Shown piece by piece: positions 6,564 to 10,580 of a stretch of DNA of 64,000 nucleotides. Position 1 is the stretch's first letter, and each line of letters starts with the position of its first letter. The position numbers and the translations under genes are program-made. Source of the stretch: Candidatus Eiseniibacteriota bacterium. Lineage in GTDB: Bacteria; Eisenbacteria; RBG-16-71-46; SZUA-252. The notes under the pieces are model-generated. The model saw only the letters and a program-made list of their open reading frames with translations. It ran no database searches and had not been told where the DNA came from. The stretch covers positions 804,001-868,000 of the forward strand of contig OY969801.1 in the NCBI GenBank assembly GCA_963703225.1, written 5' to 3'.

Positions 6564-7736
6564 ATGCCGAAGACGCCCAACAATCCTGAGCCGCCGCGAC
6601 GTCCTGCAGCCGCGGGGCGCCCCGCGCGCGCTGCCGTCGCCGCCGTGCCCGAGATCGACCACGAGCGGATCACCGATCCCGGGCCGTTGGGCAGCGAGGT
6701 CGATCTCGACCGCACCCTCCGCCCGCAGCGGCTCGAGGAGTTCGTGGGGCAGGAATCGCTCCGCGAGCAGCTCCGGATCGCGGTGGAGGCGGCGAGACAG
6801 CGCGGCGAGGCGCTGGACCACCTTCTCTTCCACGGCCCTCCCGGCCTGGGCAAGACCACCCTCGCGTCGATCATCGCGGCCGAGATGGACGTGCCGATCG
6901 TCCAGACCTCGGGGCCAGTTTTGGAACGGGCCGCCGACCTCGCGGGCCTTTTGACCAACCTCGAGTTCCGCTCCGTGCTCTTCATCGACGAGATCCACCG
7001 GATGAATCCGGTCGTCGAGGAGTATCTCTATCCCGCGATCGAGGACTTCTGCCTCGACATCATGATCGACCGGGGTCCCAGCGCGCGGAGCGTCCGGATC
7101 GACATCAAGCGATTCACATTGATCGGCGCCACGACGCGCACCGGCCTCCTGAGCGCGCCGCTCCGCGGCCGCTTTGGGATGAGCGCCCGGCTCGACTACT
7201 ACGCGCCCGAGGAATTGACGCGAATCATCCGCCGCTCGGCGAAAATCCTCGGCGTGCCGATCGACGCGGCCGGCGCCAAGGAGCTGGCCTCCCGCTCGCG
7301 CGGAACGCCGCGGGTGGGAAACCGCCTCCTGCGCCGCGTCCGGGACTACGCCGAGACGCGCGCCGACGGGAAGATCACCGAGGAGGTGGCTCGCGCCGCG
7401 CTCAAGCTTTTGGAAGTGGACGCGCGCGGCCTCGACGACATGGACCGCCGGATGCTCGAGGCAATCGTGGTCAAGTACGGCGGCGGCCCGGTCGGGCTCT
7501 CGACGATCGCCGTCGTGGTGGGAGAGGAGCCGGGAACGCTCGAGGACGTCTACGAGCCCTACCTGATCCAGGAGGGTTTCCTGAAGCGGACGGCGCGGGG
7601 CCGCGAGGCCACCGATCTCGCCTTCACCCACCTCGGCCTCACGCCACCCGACCGCGGCGCCTCCGCCGACCCGGCATTGGCGCGCCCCGAAGTGCCCGAA
7701 GAGGGCCCGGATACGCCTCAAAGCACGCTGTTCTGA
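6564..7736 (+). CDS. ruvB: Holliday junction branch migration helicase RuvB
   Basis: AAA+ Walker [10 protein letters not shown], Walker B LFIDEIH, sensor motifs; ~40-aa Ala/Pro-rich N-terminal extension. Confidence 0.9.
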
Positions 7737-7751
7737 CCCGCAAATATTTCC

Positions 7752-7783
7752 TTGAACCCGTACCATGGTACCGGGTCGATGAT
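7752..7783 (+). promoter_or_regulatory. MerR-type promoter/operator: TTGAAC followed directly by dyad CCGTAC-CATG-GTACCGG in a long (19-20 bp) spacer
   Basis: Perfect 12-bp palindrome GTACCATGGTAC at 7760-7771; half-site CCGTAC and the position immediately after the -35-like hexamer match, as recalled from the literature, the classical mer operator arrangement (TTGACT-CCGTAC..GTACGG); -10 element not clearly identifiable. Confidence 0.45.
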
Positions 7784-7798
7784 TCCAACCAGGTCGAT

Positions 7799-8227
7799 AT
7801 GAGCCAGAGATACCTGAGCAGCGGCGAGCTTGCCCGCGAGTCGGGCGTGAATTTGGAGACCCTCCGCTACTACGAGCGGCGGGATCTTCTGCCCCGGGTT
7901 GCGCGGACGGCAAGCGGACACCGGCGCTACGACCCTGAAGCGGTCTCACTCCTGAGGCTGATCAAGCGAGCCAAGGACCTCGGATTCACTCTCGCCGAGA
8001 TTCGGGGGCTGCTTCGAGGGCTCGAGCGTCCCAAAGCGGTCTGCGATGACGTCTGCCGGGTGATCGAAGCGAAAATCGGCCATTTGGATCAGGAGCTCAC
8101 GCGATTGAGGTCCCAGCGCGTACGGCTTTCGCGGTTACGGGATGACTGTCCGCGGACGCGGCCGTTGCGGGAGTGCCCGGTCGTCGTCGAGCTCAAGGGC
8201 GCCACACCAAGAAGGAGGAAACGATGA
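7799..8227 (+). CDS. MerR family metal-responsive transcriptional regulator (Cys82, Cys117, Cys126 present)
   Basis: 142 aa; N-terminal HTH (LSSGELARESGVNLETLRYYERRDLL), dimerisation helix, cysteines at 82, 86, 117, 126 by direct counting; matches positions of Hg-binding cysteines in Tn501 MerR (established knowledge). Confidence 0.8.
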   Translation: MSQRYLSSGELARESGVNLETLRYYERRDLLPRVARTASGHRRYDPEAVSLLRLIKRAKDLGFTLAEIRGLLRGLERPKAVCDDVCRVIEAKIGHLDQELTRLRSQRVRLSRLRDDCPRTRPLRECPVVVELKGATPRRRKR

Positions 8228-8340
8228 AACGAATCGTGCTGATGCTGCTCACAATCGGGCTCATCGTGGCGAACGACGCAGTGTCGTGGGGGTCGACCGT
8301 GGCGAATGCTTGCCCAGGGAAGTGCCCGTTCTGCCCCTGA
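8224..8340 (+). CDS. small Cys-rich peptide (38 aa), hydrophobic N-terminus plus C-terminal CPGKCPFCP motif; not in supplied ORF track
   Basis: ATG at 8224 overlaps merR stop (ATGA coupling); MKRIVLMLLTIGLIVANDAVSWGSTVANACPGKCPFCP*; G/C-rich third positions; followed by strong hairpin terminator. Confidence 0.45.
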   Translation: MKRIVLMLLTIGLIVANDAVSWGSTVANACPGKCPFCP

Positions 8341-8361
8341 ACGGAAAGAAGGGCGAAATCC

Positions 8362-8397
8362 GGCCGGCGGCCAGATTTGGTCGCCGGCCCTTTCATT
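8362..8397 (+). terminator. intrinsic terminator-like hairpin after the small peptide gene
   Basis: 8-bp GC stem GGCCGGCG / CGCCGGCC with 12-nt loop, followed by CTTTCATT. Confidence 0.5.
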
Positions 8398-8531
8398 CCC
8401 AGATAGAATTTGCGCGCCTGTCCCTCTAGTCGCGCTGCACTGAACTGAGGGCGTGGAAGCCCCTTGTCACAACCGGACGCGTTCACCGGTTCCTAGGTGA
8501 GAAAGACGTCCGTGAAAAGGAGGGTCGGAGG

Positions 8532-9419
8532 ATGCAGGGCCGTATCCCGGTTGCAGTCGCCATCGCCGCGATGCTGTGCATTCCCTTAAGCAGGATTGTG
8601 CCCTCGGCGCTGGCGGAACCGCTCCCGCCGAACCAGCGCGACCGCGAGGACGGAATTCCGACCTCGATGCTGGGGTCCTATGTTCAACGCCACGAGCTCT
8701 TGATCTATCCCTCCTACGAATACGTGACCGATCACAACATGGAGTACAACCCTGCAAACCTGGGCTACGGGCTGCAGGAGGATTTCCGCGGAAAGTTTCG
8801 CTCGTCCTCGGGAGGGATCTTCTTTGCTTACGGGGTTACTCGCAAGATCGCGCTGGAGTTCGAGACGGCGTACGAGAAGGCGTCACTCGAGAAGTCTCCC
8901 AGCGACCCATCGACGACTCCCGGCGAGATCAAGGAATCGGGGCTAGCCGACATCGAAGGACAAGTTCGGATCCGGCTGGCCGAGGAGCGCCGCAAGCGGC
9001 CGGAGATATACACGTTCGTCGAAATCACCGCGCCCACCCAGAGAGACGCGCTCCTTATCGGGAGCCCGGACTGGGATGCGCGCCCGGGCATCGGGTTGAT
9101 TCACGGATACCCCTGGGGCACGATGACGATCTGGTCCACGCTCGAGTACAACCGGGAACAGTCGGCCATCCAGGAACCGGCGCACTTCGATATCGGAGAG
9201 ACGGCCATCGAGTACCTGAGGCGCTTTTCGCGGTCCTGGCTGTTCAGCATGGCGTGGGAAGGCGGCGAAGGGGGTGCGCCAGACGAGTGGGAGCTGCGCA
9301 CCGGGATCCAGGGGCCCCTCGCCCATTGGGCGCACTTGAAGATCATCAACTCGGTGGGAGTCTTCTCGAAGTCTCCCGACTGGACGCTGCAAGCCGGGTT
9401 GATGTTCACCATGAAGTGA
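8532..9419 (+). CDS. secreted hypothetical protein
   Basis: 295 aa; AGGAGG-like RBS; N-terminal signal peptide (AVAIAAMLCIPLSRIVPSALA); no recognised catalytic motif. Confidence 0.55.
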   Translation: MQGRIPVAVAIAAMLCIPLSRIVPSALAEPLPPNQRDREDGIPTSMLGSYVQRHELLIYPSYEYVTDHNMEYNPANLGYGLQEDFRGKFRSSSGGIFFAYGVTRKIALEFETAYEKASLEKSPSDPSTTPGEIKESGLADIEGQVRIRLAEERRKRPEIYTFVEITAPTQRDALLIGSPDWDARPGIGLIHGYPWGTMTIWSTLEYNREQSAIQEPAHFDIGETAIEYLRRFSRSWLFSMAWEGGEGGAPDEWELRTGIQGPLAHWAHLKIINSVGVFSKSPDWTLQAGLMFTMK

Positions 9420-9479
9420 GATCACGGCTGGCCACTCCCGAAGAGGCGGGGACCGCCCAAATGGTCTAAGGTCGGAGTA

Positions 9480-10580
9480 TTGAAAACCTCCGACTTCGAT
9501 TACGACCTTCCCAAAGAACGGATCGCGCAGCACCCGGCGGCGACCCGCGACGCGTCCCGCCTCTTGATCCTCGATCGCGCGAGCGGCGCGATCGCCCACA
9601 GGACCTTCCGCGACCTCCCCGAGTTCCTGCGCCCGGGCGATCTTCTGGTCGTCAACGACACGCGGGTGATTCCGGCGCGGCTCTTTGGGCGGCTCCACCC
9701 CGAGCCCGGGGGCGAGGGCCGCGGGGGCGTGCCGAGCACCGCGAGCCAACCGACCCCGGACCGCGAAATCGAGCTGCTCCTCCTCCGCGAAGAGCCGGCG
9801 GTGGCGCCGGAGCGGATCTGGTCCGCGCTCGCCAAACCCGCCCGCGCGCTCCACCCCGGCGCCATCGTGCGCTTTGTCGATCCCTCCTACGAAGCCGCCA
9901 TCATCTCGATTGGAGAGCGGGGCGTCCGCCGCGTCTCCTTCCGCCCCGCCCAGGACGCCACCTTTCCGTTCGAGGTCTGGCTCGCCCGCGTTGGGCACGT
10001 GCCGCTGCCTCCCTACATCGATCGCTCCGACGAGCCGGGCGACCGCGAGCGCTACCAGACGATCTTCGCCCGCGAAGGTGGATCGGTGGCGGCCCCCACC
10101 GCGGGGCTTCACTTCACCGACGAGACTCTCGCGGCGGTCCGCTCCAGAGGAGCAGCCGTCGAGACCGTGACCCTCCACGTCGGTGCGGGCACGTTTCGGC
10201 CCGTGGCCACCGAAGACCCCGCCGAGCACCTGCTCGACCCCGAGCCCTATCGCGTGCCGCCCGAGACCGCGGCGGCGCTCCAAGCCAACCTGGGCCGCGT
10301 GATCGCCGTGGGCACGACTTCGGTCCGGACCCTCGAGTCGTGGGCCCTCGACGGCCGGCTCGACGACGGCGCGTGGCGTGAGACCGGCCTCTTCATCCTT
10401 CCCCCGTTCCGCTTTCAAGTCGTCCAGGGGCTCGTCACCAACTTCCACCTGCCCCGCTCGAGCCTCCTCATGCTGGTCTGCGCGTTCGCCGGCCGCGAAC
10501 CGGTCCTCGCCGCCTACAACACCGCGGTCCGCGAGGGCTACCGCTTCTATTCCTACGGAGACGCGATGCTGATCCTGTAG
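9480..10580 (+). CDS. queA: tRNA preQ1(34) S-adenosylmethionine ribosyltransferase-isomerase QueA
   Basis: 366 aa; N-terminal MKTSDFDYDLPKERIAQHP and C-terminal GYRFYSYGDAMLIL typical of QueA; TTG start. Confidence 0.9.
   Translation: MKTSDFDYDLPKERIAQHPAATRDASRLLILDRASGAIAHRTFRDLPEFLRPGDLLVVNDTRVIPARLFGRLHPEPGGEGRGGVPSTASQPTPDREIELLLLREEPAVAPERIWSALAKPARALHPGAIVRFVDPSYEAAIISIGERGVRRVSFRPAQDATFPFEVWLARVGHVPLPPYIDRSDEPGDRERYQTIFAREGGSVAAPTAGLHFTDETLAAVRSRGAAVETVTLHVGAGTFRPVATEDPAEHLLDPEPYRVPPETAAALQANLGRVIAVGTTSVRTLESWALDGRLDDGAWRETGLFILPPFRFQVVQGLVTNFHLPRSSLLMLVCAFAGREPVLAAYNTAVREGYRFYSYGDAMLIL

What the first reader, a model, noticed from the sequence alone, without database searches (positions are those of the whole stretch)
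7752..8397. Minimal mer-like module: MerR-type sensor plus cryptic Cys-rich peptide, with merO-like operator and own terminator
A compact unit directly downstream of ruvB: a promoter whose -35-like hexamer is followed immediately by the dyad CCGTAC-CATG-GTACCGG, a 142-aa MerR-family regulator carrying cysteines at exactly 82, 117 and 126, a 38-codon ORF translationally coupled by an ATGA overlap, and a GC-rich hairpin terminator. No merA, merT or merP-like gene is nearby, so this is not a canonical mer operon. It could be a minimal metal-sensing and sequestration or signalling module.
Basis: partly seen in the sequence, partly recalled or inferred. Interest (0 to 1): 0.8.

Follow-up and report, generated by a model that had tools for sequence, protein, structure and literature searches.

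The report
MerR metal sensor with tri-cysteine mini-peptide
A mercury-type metal-sensing regulator and an unannotated 38-residue exported peptide ending in three cysteines form a conserved, self-contained two-gene unit found only in the uncultured phylum Candidatus Eisenbacteria; it is probably a minimal metal-trapping device.

Summary
It has one omission: the regulator has a fourth cysteine, C86.

- **The unit.** Window 7752-8397 carries, in order:
  - a mer-type promoter/operator (TTGAAC, then CCGTAC-N4-GTAC inside a 19/20-bp spacer);
  - a 142-aa MerR whose C82, C117 and C126 align with the Hg(II) ligands of Tn21 and Bacillus MerR;
  - an ATGA-overlapping 38-codon gene with its own AGGAGG ribosome-binding site;
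  - a 12-bp GC hairpin.
- **The short ORF is a real gene.** I found 27 distinct homologues of 34-40 aa with the consensus M[KR]R, a hydrophobic stretch, W, then CPGKCP[F/L]CP. The last nine codons have pN = 0 against pS = 0.79.
- **The pairing is strict.**
  - All 16 loci of this MerR clade (52-85% identity) have the peptide gene directly downstream.
  - All 6 peptide genes found from the peptide side have this MerR upstream.
  - None of 75 outgroup MerR loci has it.
- **The unit stands alone.** Flanking genes differ from locus to locus.
- **C86 marks the clade.** It is present in 45/45 clade members and 0/75 outgroup proteins. It sits where CadR has its fourth Cd ligand, Asn81, which suggests a four-thiolate site.
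- **No prior description.** Pfam and NCBIfam gave no match, and the literature search found nothing.
- **Not shown.** The metal (Hg most likely), the peptide's topology and its chelating role are all inferred.

Verdict: a new variant of a known kind.

The parts
7752..7757 (+). -35 hexamer TTGAAC
   Evidence: Read. In the 15 aligned upstream regions the hexamer is TTG followed by variable bases (TTGAAC, TTGCAT, TTGACC, TTGAAT, TTGATT or TTGCAC), at the same distance from the dyad.
7758..7774 (.). merO-type operator dyad CCGTAC-CATG-GTACCGG; the core GTACCATGGTAC at 7760-7771 is a perfect palindrome
   Evidence: It is the only GTAC-N4-GTAC site in the 64 kb (0.13 expected). It has the same half-site, 4-bp spacing and position against the -35 as Tn21 merO, TTGACT-CCGTAC-ATGA-GTACGG. 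That Tn21 sequence was confirmed between merR and merT of plasmid R100. The dyad is conserved in related loci.
7778..7783 (+). Weak -10-like hexamer GATGAT, 20 bp after the -35 (19 bp if read as CGATGA)
   Evidence: Read from the sequence. Orthologous loci have GATCCT, CATCCT, TATCCT or GATACT at 19-20 bp. The standard scan for 16-18-bp spacers finds no promoter here, as expected for an over-long MerR-type spacer. Function is inferred.
7799..8227 (+). merR-like gene: 142 aa, Cys 82, 86, 117 and 126
   Evidence: Pfam MerR_1, MerR-DNA-bind and MerR. Best NCBIfam model is TIGR02051 MerR at 95.2 bits, below its cutoff of 150.85. Best solved structure is Bacillus MerR 4ua1, E = 5.7e-24, aligned without gaps across all three ligand Cys. 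The alignment to Tn21 MerR puts C82, C117 and C126 at the same residue numbers. All four Cys are present in 45/45 clade members; C86 is present in 0/75 outgroup proteins.
8212..8218 (+). Shine-Dalgarno AAGGAGG for the peptide gene, lying inside the last merR codons
   Evidence: Read. An AGGAGG-like run 5-9 nt before the peptide start is present in 14 of the 15 loci where the junction was read; L101 has only GGAGG, before an upstream GTG. The same purine run encodes the basic C-terminal tail of MerR (RRRKR).
8224..8340 (+). Gene for the 38-aa peptide MKRIVLMLLTIGLIVANDAVSWGSTVANACPGKCPFCP: N-terminal export/anchor segment and C-terminal tri-Cys motif
   Evidence: ATGA overlap with the merR stop. 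27 distinct homologues. Pooled dN/dS is 0.27, and the last 9 codons have pN = 0 with pS = 0.79; four of the five other frames have pN/pS above 1, and the fifth, on the opposite strand, has 0.55. Always found next to the clade MerR. No Pfam or NCBIfam match.
8362..8397 (+). Terminator-like GC hairpin GGCCGGCGGCCA-GATT-TGGTCGCCGGCC, then CTTTCATT
   Evidence: Found by the terminator scan. Folds at -33.5 kcal/mol, z = -4.25. A comparable 11-16-bp hairpin follows the peptide stop in all 10 loci folded.

Best explanation
This is an autoregulated two-gene operon specific to Candidatus Eisenbacteria.

**Sensor (architecture shown, activity inferred).** A MerR-type homodimer binds the GTAC-N4-GTAC dyad, which lies in the over-long 19/20-bp spacer between TTGAAC and a weak -10. 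A thiophilic metal then binds through C82 and probably C86 of one subunit and C117'/C126' of the other. Hg(II) is the most likely metal; Cd(II) and Pb(II) are the main alternatives. As in other MerR activators, the dimer would then re-align the promoter and switch on transcription of merR and the overlapping 38-codon gene.

**Effector (inferred).** The product has a positively charged N-terminus, a hydrophobic segment and an invariant C-terminal CPGKCP[F/L]CP. I read it as Sec-targeted, in one of two forms:
- a single-pass N-in/C-out membrane peptide; or
- after signal-peptidase cleavage in front of the conserved Trp, a free 15-17-residue periplasmic peptide.

Either way, its three thiolates would trap the metal outside the cytoplasm. 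That makes it a minimal functional analogue of MerP or of a metallothionein, possibly handing metal on to other systems.

**Shown:** gene reality, strict linkage, operator type, ligand alignment and module boundaries. **Inferred:** metal identity, induction, topology and chelation.
For: **Sensor**
- MerR family domains.
- Ungapped alignment of C82, C117 and C126 to the Hg ligands of Bacillus MerR 4ua1, E = 5.7e-24, and of Tn21 MerR.
- All four Cys are present in 45/45 clade members.
- The operator has the same half-sites, spacing and position as Tn21 merO.

**The peptide is a real protein**
- 27 distinct homologues with all three Cys invariant.
- pN = 0 against pS = 0.79 in the motif codons. 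The annotated frame has the lowest pN/pS of the six (0.43); four others exceed 1, and one opposite-strand frame gives 0.55.
- An AGGAGG-like ribosome-binding site in 14 of 15 loci and an ATGA overlap in 12 of 15.

**Linkage**
- 16/16 clade MerR loci carry the peptide gene.
- 6/6 peptide genes found by an independent DNA-motif scan of metagenomes have the clade MerR upstream; the 9 chance matches do not.
- 0/75 outgroup MerR loci carry it.

**A stand-alone unit**
- Neighbours differ at every locus: ruvB/queA, CHRD/inhibitor_I42, Wzi/ars genes, cytochrome/cupredoxin, Band_7.
- A hairpin follows the peptide stop in 10/10 loci folded.

**Link to metals**
- In L003, L005 and L006 the next gene encodes a secreted HMA + thioredoxin fusion.
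- In a related genome a MerR paralogue with the same operator heads an island with MerT-HMA, MerC and a MerA-like reductase.

**Export**
- The best 19-residue hydropathy windows score 1.6-2.4.
- N-terminal charge is +2 in 26 of 27 peptides (+1 in one); the C-terminal part carries -1 to +1.
Against: - There are no expression, induction or binding data.
- The MerR scores below the curated cutoff of the Hg(II) MerR equivalog model (95 against 150.85 bits), and CadR-PbrR scores almost as well at 88 bits.
- The clade-specific C86 occupies the position of CadR Asn81, the fourth Cd(II) ligand (PMC6789929). That argues for a four-coordinate site, unlike the trigonal Hg(II) site of classical MerR.
- Three periplasmic cysteines could instead form disulfides.
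- A peptide with one binding site per molecule is a low-capacity sink.
- Signal-peptide cleavage is uncertain. The -1 residue before the conserved Trp is often Thr and sometimes Val, Met or Arg, and no dedicated predictor could be run.
Confidence: 0.55

Rival explanations
1. The sensor is the same, but the peptide is an accessory of a canonical mer system elsewhere in the genome rather than a sink. It would act as a membrane-face Hg(II) acceptor that passes metal to MerT or MerC and on to MerA, much as MerP or MerE do. The module's MerR may also be the master Hg sensor for that distant island.
For: A related genome carries, 30 kb from its module, an island with MerT-HMA, MerC and a MerA-like reductase. 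The island's MerR paralogue lacks the C82 equivalent, yet its promoter has the same TTGAAC-CCGTAC-N4-GTACGG operator. Cross-regulation by the fully equipped module MerR is therefore plausible.
Against: - The module is never adjacent to mer transport or reductase genes in 16 loci.
- It keeps its own terminator.
- The peptide shows no similarity to MerP, MerT, MerC or MerE.
- Whether the window's own genome has a mer island is unknown.
Confidence: 0.2
2. The pair responds to a metal or metalloid other than mercury: Cd(II), Pb(II), Zn(II) or As(III)/Sb(III). The four-cysteine site tunes the sensor, and the Cys3 peptide buffers that ion.
For: - C86 is present in 45/45 clade members and 0/75 outgroup proteins, at the position of CadR's fourth ligand.
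- The CadR-PbrR model scores nearly as high as MerR.
- PbrR-like 5gpe also aligns without gaps, with the same 9-residue Cys spacing.
- One locus lies beside ars genes and another near a heavy-metal P-type ATPase and a cupredoxin.
Against: - The operator is of the mer (GTAC-N4-GTAC) type. That it differs from the CadR, ZntR and CueR operator types rests on my recollection of those sequences and was not checked here.
- The best structural relative by sequence is a true Hg(II) MerR.
- The ars and ATPase neighbours are convergent or divergent and are not conserved.
Confidence: 0.17
3. The system has nothing to do with metal detoxification. The four cysteines would sense redox or thiol stress, or hold an Fe-S cluster. 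The small membrane peptide would be a regulatory or redox-active partner of another membrane protein, comparable to small membrane regulators with periplasmic cysteines such as MgrB (my recollection, not checked here).
For: - Four Cys per site could ligate a cluster, as in SoxR (general knowledge).
- CPFC resembles a thiol-disulfide exchange motif.
- The downstream partners in some loci are thioredoxin-fold proteins.
Against: - The cysteine positions match the metal site of MerR, CadR and PbrR, not the SoxR C-terminal CX2CXCX5C cluster.
- SoxR and NmlR models score far lower.
- The thioredoxin partner in L003, L005 and L006 is fused to a heavy-metal-associated domain.
Confidence: 0.06
4. The 38-codon ORF is not a functional product. 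It would be a chance ORF, a leader whose translation only affects merR mRNA, or a RiPP precursor.
For: The ORF is very short, gene callers often miss it, and no family model matches it.
Against: - Amino-acid conservation with saturated synonymous change: pN = 0, pS = 0.79 in the motif.
- 27 distinct homologues of constant length.
- A strong ribosome-binding site in nearly all loci.
- No conserved maturase or transporter gene next to it.
Confidence: 0.02

Closest known systems
Hg(II)-responsive MerR with merO: Tn21/Tn501, and the Gram-positive type of Bacillus (PDB 4ua1), where merR is the first gene of the regulated operon
   Same: - Same fold family.
- The three Hg-ligand cysteines align, at the same residue numbers as in Tn21.
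- The 9-residue C117-C126 loop ends in Cys-Pro.
- The operator has CCGTAC-N4-GTAC directly after the -35, inside a 19/20-bp spacer.
- merR is co-directional and first in the operon, as in Bacillus-type operons (this last point is general knowledge).

   Different: - It scores below the equivalog cutoff.
- It has an extra invariant Cys86.
- No merT, merP or merA follows; the only regulated partner is a 38-aa peptide.
CadR / PbrR, the Cd(II)/Pb(II)-responsive MerR regulators (PDB 6jgv, 5gpe)
   Same: A three-Cys site at the end of the dimerisation helix. Residue 86 occupies the position of CadR Asn81, the fourth ligand of Cd(II) (PMC6789929). PbrR-like 5gpe shares the 9-residue Cys spacing.
   Different: - The fourth ligand here is a thiolate, not an amide.
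- There is no His-rich second site or tail.
- The operator is mer-type.
- CadR's loop spacing is 7 residues, not 9.
MerP, the periplasmic Hg(II)-binding protein of mer operons
   Same: The proposed role is the same: an exported, MerR-controlled thiol ligand for Hg(II) outside the cytoplasm.
   Different: MerP is a 72-residue HMA-fold domain with GMTCxxC and two Cys. The peptide is 34-40 aa before any processing, has three Cys in CPGKCPxCP, shows no HMA match, and is not next to merT.
Small bacterial metallothioneins under metal-sensor control, for example the MymT-like 47-aa ORFs that follow outgroup MerR genes in Acidobacteriota
   Same: A short Cys-rich protein encoded directly after a MerR-type sensor. 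It was seen here in L030, L066 and L081, with a weak MymT match of 22 bits, below the cutoff of 80.
   Different: Those proteins are cytosolic, lack a hydrophobic N-terminus and have 9-10 Cys that form clusters. The Eisenbacteria peptide has an export or anchor segment and only three Cys.
MerE / MerF / MerT, the small inner-membrane Hg(II) transporters
   Same: Small, membrane-associated, Cys-bearing products of mer operons.
   Different: Those proteins have 2-3 transmembrane helices, with Cys pairs inside the first helix and on the cytoplasmic side. The peptide has one hydrophobic segment, with all its Cys in the C-terminal tail. There is no sequence similarity.

Membership tests
MerR family transcriptional regulators | N-terminal winged HTH (MerR_1 / MerR) followed by the coiled-coil dimerisation helix (MerR-DNA-bind) | tested here: met
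   PF13411 at 72.7 bits, PF09278 at 52.9 bits and PF00376 at 51.3 bits, all above their cutoffs.
Hg(II)-responsive MerR (TIGR02051 equivalog) | Score above the curated equivalog cutoff | tested here: not met
   95.2 bits against a cutoff of 150.85. It is the best-scoring model, but CadR-PbrR follows closely at 88.4 bits.
Hg(II)-responsive MerR | Three metal-ligand cysteines: C82 on the dimerisation helix, and C117 and C126 in the C-terminal loop | tested here: met
   They align without gaps to Tn21 MerR C82, C117 and C126 and to the ligand Cys of Bacillus MerR 4ua1. They are present in 45/45 clade members.
Hg(II)-responsive MerR | merO-type operator: a dyad with GTAC-N4-GTAC core inside a 19-20-bp -35/-10 spacer | tested here: met
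   Window 7752-7783 compared with R100 merOP. The architecture is conserved in the 15 upstream regions read; the GTAC half-sites are degenerate in several of them.
Hg(II)-responsive MerR | Controls mer structural genes (merT, merP, merA or equivalents) | tested here: not met
   None in the 64-kb window and none adjacent in the other loci. Distant targets cannot be excluded.
Hg(II)-responsive MerR | Hg(II)-dependent activation of transcription | not testable with these tools
   This needs a reporter assay or in vitro transcription.
CadR/PbrR (TIGR02047) | Score above the equivalog cutoff; the CadR type also needs the 7-residue Cys loop and the His-rich site II | tested here: not met
   88.4 bits against a cutoff of 151.45. 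Loop spacing is 9 residues, and the alignment to CadR needs a 2-residue gap. There is no His-rich tail.
MerP / HMA domain | HMA fold of about 70 residues with a GMxCxxC motif | tested here: not met
   No Pfam or NCBIfam hit for the peptide. It is too short for the fold, and its motif is CPGKCPxCP.
MerT / MerC / MerE / MerF transporters | Sequence similarity, and at least 2 transmembrane helices with an intramembrane Cys pair | tested here: not met
   No family hit. No Tn21 MerT or MerC match in the window. The peptide has a single hydrophobic segment without Cys.
Bacterial lipoproteins | Lipobox [LVI][ASTVI][GAS]C before the first Cys | tested here: not met
   The residues before the first Cys include ANA, VKA, SWR, AAR, KQV and KDV. 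There is no consistent lipobox.
Sec signal peptide / single-pass membrane peptide | Positively charged N-region, a hydrophobic core, and optionally a small -3/-1 cleavage site | tested here: inconclusive
   - M[KR]R is followed by a hydrophobic stretch, and the best 19-residue hydropathy windows score 1.6-2.4.
- A small residue usually precedes the conserved Trp, but Thr, Val, Met or Arg also occur at -1.
- No dedicated predictor was available.
RiPP precursor | A conserved neighbouring maturase or transporter | tested here: not met
   No gene other than merR is conserved next to the peptide gene across loci.

The most novel reading that the evidence does not exclude
The Eisenbacteria carry a stand-alone extracytoplasmic metal defence that has not been described. 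It would consist of a MerR subclade with a tetra-thiolate site (C82/C86 + C117'/C126') and a ribosomally made, Sec-exported tri-cysteine peptide of 15-17 residues once processed. The peptide would act as a minimal secreted or membrane-tethered chelator, in effect a gene-encoded mini-metallothionein or metallophore. The sensor may also be the master regulator of distant mer islands through the shared operator.
Probability: 0.3. Interest if true: 0.75.

Novelty: new variant of a known kind. Interest (0 to 1): 0.6.

Why it matters
- **A new kind of mer-type effector.** If the peptide is a metal trap, it is the smallest effector yet linked to a mer-type switch, and it shows metal handling without a transporter or a reductase.
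- **An engineering part.** The cassette is about 650 bp and self-contained: sensor, operator, effector and terminator. That suits biosensors or bioremediation strains.
- **A natural test of metal selectivity.** The clade-specific fourth cysteine lies at the position known to tune Cd selectivity in CadR. It offers a natural experiment on how MerR sensors set their metal preference.
- **A gap in annotation.** This conserved small-protein family sits in a widespread soil phylum that has not been cultured, and no Pfam or NCBIfam model or name covers it.

Tried and rejected
1. **The 295-aa secreted protein downstream (8532-9419) as a module member: rejected.** It has no Pfam hit even at E = 10. Its homologues are widespread and lie in unrelated contexts without merR. 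It shows no significant similarity to the outer-membrane barrel that follows the module in L005.
2. **RiPP precursor: rejected.** No conserved maturase lies nearby.
3. **Lipoprotein: rejected.** There is no lipobox.
4. **An RNA element in 7000-9600: none.** There was no Rfam match at E <= 1.
5. **Plasmid-borne relatives: none.** The best MerR match in PLSDB is below 45% identity, and the peptide gives only chance matches.
6. **Direct word-indexed search with the 38-aa peptide: refused as too short.** I repeated it with the 55-codon upstream-extended ORF (3 hits). An exhaustive phmmer search then gave 15 hits, 13 of them true members including the window's own peptide.
8. **Literature: nothing relevant.** Searches for the motif, for Eisenbacteria + MerR, and for MerR + small Cys-rich periplasmic proteins returned nothing on this system.
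9. **The standard sigma-70 scan finds no promoter here.** I read this as the consequence of the 19/20-bp spacer, not as absence of a promoter.
Full report
**1. The observation**

- TTGAAC at 7752-7757 is followed at once by CCGTACCATGGTACCGG (7758-7774). The core GTACCATGGTAC (7760-7771) is a perfect palindrome; the outermost bases are not.
- The composite pattern TTGNNNCNGTACNNNNGTAC occurs once in the 64 kb, against 0.05 expected. The bare dyad GTAC-N4-GTAC also occurs once, against 0.13 expected.
- A weak -10-like GATGAT lies 20 bp after the -35. The standard scan for 16-18-bp spacers finds no promoter, as expected for a MerR-type spacer.
- The ORF at 7799-8227 encodes 142 aa with Cys at 82, 86, 117 and 126.
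- The 38-codon ORF at 8224-8340 overlaps the merR stop as ATGA and is preceded by AAGGAGG.
- A 12-pair hairpin with 10 G-C pairs at 8362-8389 is followed by CTTTCATT. It folds at -33.5 kcal/mol, z = -4.25.
- Upstream are yebC, ruvC, ruvA and ruvB. Downstream are a 295-aa secreted protein and queA.
- tblastn found no MerT, MerP, MerC or MerA homologue anywhere in the window. This held for Tn21 queries and for Eisenbacteria queries.

**2. The regulator**

- It carries the MerR family domains.
- Its best NCBIfam model is the Hg(II) MerR equivalog TIGR02051, but at 95 bits it is below the cutoff of 150.85. CadR-PbrR (88 bits), ZntR and CueR follow closely.
- Among solved structures the best match is Bacillus MerR 4ua1, E = 5.7e-24. 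The alignment is ungapped and pairs C82, C117 and C126 with the three Hg(II) ligands, including the 'C-P ... E-C-P' pattern. CadR and PbrR-like 5gpe score about 1e-15, and Tn501 MerR scores 2e-14.
- I took the Tn21 MerR sequence from plasmid R100. It aligns so that C82, C117 and C126 carry the same residue numbers.
- The protein database holds a sharply bounded orthologous clade: 45 clusters at 53-85% identity, then a drop to 47% or less. All four cysteines are invariant across the 21 clade sequences aligned.
- C86 is present in 45/45 clade members and in 0/75 of the nearest outgroup proteins, which mostly have Arg or Lys there.
- In the CadR alignment C86 falls on Asn81. In the CadR crystal structures Asn81 is the fourth ligand of Cd(II) in site I and contributes to Cd selectivity (PMC6789929).
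- I therefore infer a four-thiolate site (C82/C86 + C117'/C126').

**3. The operator**

- I recalled the Tn21/Tn501 merOP sequence as TTGACT-CCGTAC-ATGA-GTACGG-AAG-TAAGGT. It was confirmed at 100% identity in the merR-merT intergenic region of R100.
- The window has the same architecture: the dyad starts directly after the -35, with CCGTAC/GTAC half-sites 4 bp apart and a 19/20-bp spacer.
- The architecture is conserved in the 15 orthologous upstream regions I could read. All have a TTG-type -35, a dyad of the form C(C/T)GTAC-N4-G(T/G)(A/C)C with some degenerate half-sites, and a -10-like (G/C/T)AT(C/G)(C/A)T at 19-20 bp.

**4. The small ORF is a real gene**

- In five Eisenbacteria genomes a MerR orthologue is followed by a 34-39-codon ORF ending in CP(G)KCP[F/L]C[P/S].
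- The same holds at four further contigs reached from MerR orthologues.
- Exhaustive phmmer with the 38-aa peptide returned 13 family members of 37-39 aa, counting the window's own peptide and one annotated with a 33-residue N-terminal extension. It also returned two unrelated repeat proteins.
- Altogether there are 27 distinct sequences. The consensus is M[KR]R, a hydrophobic stretch of 12-16 residues, a conserved Trp, and CPGKCP[F/L]CP at the very C-terminus.
- Among eight 38-codon orthologues, pooled dN/dS is 0.27.
- In the last nine codons pN = 0 while pS = 0.79, so synonymous sites are saturated without one amino-acid change. The annotated frame has the lowest pN/pS of the six. Four of the others exceed 1, and one opposite-strand frame gives 0.55.
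- The ATGA overlap is present in 12 of 15 loci. An AGGAGG-like ribosome-binding site lies 5-9 nt upstream in 14 of 15.
- That purine run also encodes the basic C-terminal tail of MerR.

**5. Linkage and module boundaries**

- From the regulator side, all 16 distinct clade loci with readable downstream sequence carry the peptide gene.
- From the peptide side, a degenerate DNA pattern for CPGKCP[F/L]CP scanned across the metagenome collection gave 15 matches.
  - Six encode a true family member, and all six have a clade MerR immediately upstream.
  - The other nine are chance matches and have none.
- None of the 75 outgroup MerR loci from other phyla carries the motif.
- All genome records holding the clade are labelled Candidatus Eisenbacteria.
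- Flanking genes differ from locus to locus:
  - ruvB and queA in the window;
  - CHRD and inhibitor_I42 in L097;
  - Wzi and convergent arsC, aquaglyceroporin and arsR in L099;
  - cytochrome c, a P-type ATPase and a cupredoxin in L101;
  - Band_7 in L102;
  - BlaI and BlaR in L005.
- A GC hairpin of 11-16 bp follows the peptide stop in all 10 loci folded, z = -2.7 to -5.3.
- The unit is therefore promoter/operator, merR, peptide gene and hairpin, about 650 bp.
- The 295-aa neighbour in the window is not part of it.

**6. Links to metals beyond the regulator**

- In one subclade (L003, L005, L006) the module is followed by a secreted HMA + thioredoxin fusion, with GxxCGxC and WCGPC motifs, and by a Phenol_MetA_deg outer-membrane barrel. 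A periplasmic metal-binding thiol reductase fits an extracytoplasmic cysteine peptide.
- In L095 a DF-family thioredoxin-like protein follows the module.
- A related genome, GCA_973857535.1, has a module whose MerR is 84% identical. About 30 kb away it holds a mer-like island. The genes in order are a second MerR paralogue (P0119), HMA, two other genes, a CsoR-like gene, MerT-HMA, CMD, HMA, MerC and a MerA-like reductase. The reductase has GGTCVNVGCVPSK and is 40% identical to Tn21 MerA over 207 residues.
- P0119 lacks the C82 equivalent, yet its promoter reads TTGAAC-CCGTAC-CTAG-GTACGG-GATGCATCCT, the same operator type.
- P0119 is followed by the same AGGAGG...ATGA junction and a degenerate 16-codon ORF, MKRTVEVLDVSSDPSA.
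- This ties the operator type to mercury genes within the phylum. It also raises the possibility that the module's MerR cross-regulates such islands.

**7. Mechanism**

*Shown:*
- a MerR-type regulator with a complete soft-metal cysteine site;
- a mer-type operator in an over-long spacer;
- a co-directional, translationally overlapping, strongly selected peptide gene;
- a terminator.

*Inferred from established MerR biology:* the dimer sits on the dyad, represses or idles without metal, and on metal binding re-aligns the -35 and -10 to activate transcription of its own gene and of the peptide gene. This is autoregulated, as in Bacillus-type mer operons.

*Inferred from the peptide sequence:*
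- The N-terminus carries +2 charge and the C-terminal part -1 to +1.
- The best 19-residue hydropathy windows score 1.6-2.4.
- Together these indicate Sec targeting with the C-terminus outside.
- A small residue usually precedes the invariant Trp, so signal-peptidase cleavage could release a 15-17-residue peptide. Thr, Val, Met or Arg at -1 in some members makes this uncertain.
- The short variants have a hydrophobic stretch of about 21 residues running up to the Cys motif, which looks more like a membrane anchor.
- In either form, three thiolates sit at the outer face of the inner membrane and could bind Hg(II), Pb(II), Cd(II) or As(III).

My estimates for the separate steps are:

| Step | Estimated probability |
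|---|---|
| The regulatory logic is as described | about 0.85 |
| The peptide is a translated, exported product | about 0.85 |
| The peptide binds metal | about 0.55 |
| The metal is Hg(II) | about 0.5 |

**8. Comparison with known systems**

- It works like a mer switch and resembles MerP or a metallothionein in its proposed role.
- It fails the membership tests for the Hg MerR equivalog (HMM score, adjacency to mer genes) and for MerP, MerT, MerE and metallothionein.
- A partial precedent exists in the outgroup. Some MerR genes in Acidobacteriota are followed by 47-48-aa cytosolic Cys-rich ORFs with a weak MymT match, and one in L016 is followed by a 67-aa secreted Cys-rich ORF.
- I found no Pfam or NCBIfam model, no source annotation and no paper for the CPGKCP peptide family.

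**9. Verdict**

It is a new variant of a known kind: a mer-type sensor with a clade-specific fourth cysteine, coupled to an unannotated exported tri-cysteine mini-protein and restricted to Candidatus Eisenbacteria. Interest is 0.6. The gene pair and its conservation are solid and directly testable. The function rests on inference, and the organism has not been cultured.

Noticed in passing
L105 5930-6470 and 6545-12417 (GCA_973857535.1, contig CCZUAY010000008.1): About 30 kb from that genome's merR-peptide module lies a mer-like island. Its genes in order are a MerR paralogue that lacks the C82 equivalent, HMA, two other genes, a CsoR-like gene, MerT-HMA, CMD, HMA, MerC and a MerA-like reductase. 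Its promoter has the same TTGAAC-CCGTAC-N4-GTACGG operator. The paralogue is followed by the same AGGAGG..ATGA junction and a degenerate 16-codon ORF, MKRTVEVLDVSSDPSA, possibly a decayed copy of the peptide gene.
   Followed up: partly
L003 1174-2831; L005 4617-6274; L006 1823-3093: In one subclade the module is followed by a secreted fusion of a heavy-metal-associated domain (GxNCGxC) with a thioredoxin domain (WCGPC), and then by a Phenol_MetA_deg-type outer-membrane barrel.
   Followed up: partly
window 8532-9419: This 295-aa protein has a signal-peptide-like N-terminus and no Pfam or NCBIfam match. It belongs to a family of at least 90 clusters annotated only as hypothetical, in Eisenbacteria, Calditrichia and Gemmatimonadales. 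Its homologues occur without the merR module, so it is an unrelated neighbour.
   Followed up: partly
L030, L066 and L081 (Acidobacteriota / Thermoanaerobaculia), 24-56 nt after the merR stop; L016, overlapping the merR stop; L075: Other MerR-type genes outside the clade are followed by different short Cys-rich ORFs. These include a 47-48-aa cytosolic one (MAFKKGERFKC...CCCGRDMVKQ, weak MymT metallothionein match), a 67-aa secreted one with CCC runs, and a 26-aa one (MLHIDASCCETGGCSCGCGSGCCGEE). Pairing a MerR sensor with a small Cys-rich ORF may be a wider, under-annotated theme in soil phyla.
   Followed up: partly
L013, L015, L018, L023, L039, L053, L073, L074, L076 and L095 (1025-1336): In many phyla a thioredoxin-like protein beginning M-K-(V/I)-E-L-I-Y-x-x-x-C-P-N overlaps the stop of outgroup merR genes by ATGA. 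The L095 copy matches the NCBIfam 'DF family (seleno)protein' model at 88 bits; in that locus it follows the merR-peptide module.
   Followed up: partly
L001 4421-6004: In a near-identical long-read assembly, ruvB and merR are called as one 527-aa ORF, presumably through a frameshift error. As a result the protein collection places the window's MerR in a 90% cluster made up of RuvB proteins. This is a clustering artefact to keep in mind.
   Followed up: no
L004 4001-4558: In this Eisenbacteria genome the merR reading frame has no stop at the usual place and runs through the peptide gene in another frame. The peptide there is a variant, ...APGCPKCPLCP, with C-x2-C-x2-C spacing. Either this is an assembly error or a real extended MerR.
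   Followed up: no
window 8203-8227: The purine-rich Shine-Dalgarno sequence of the peptide gene lies inside the last merR codons and encodes the conserved basic tail of MerR (P-R-R-R-K-R). The tail may be a by-product of the ribosome-binding site rather than a functional part of the regulator.
   Followed up: no
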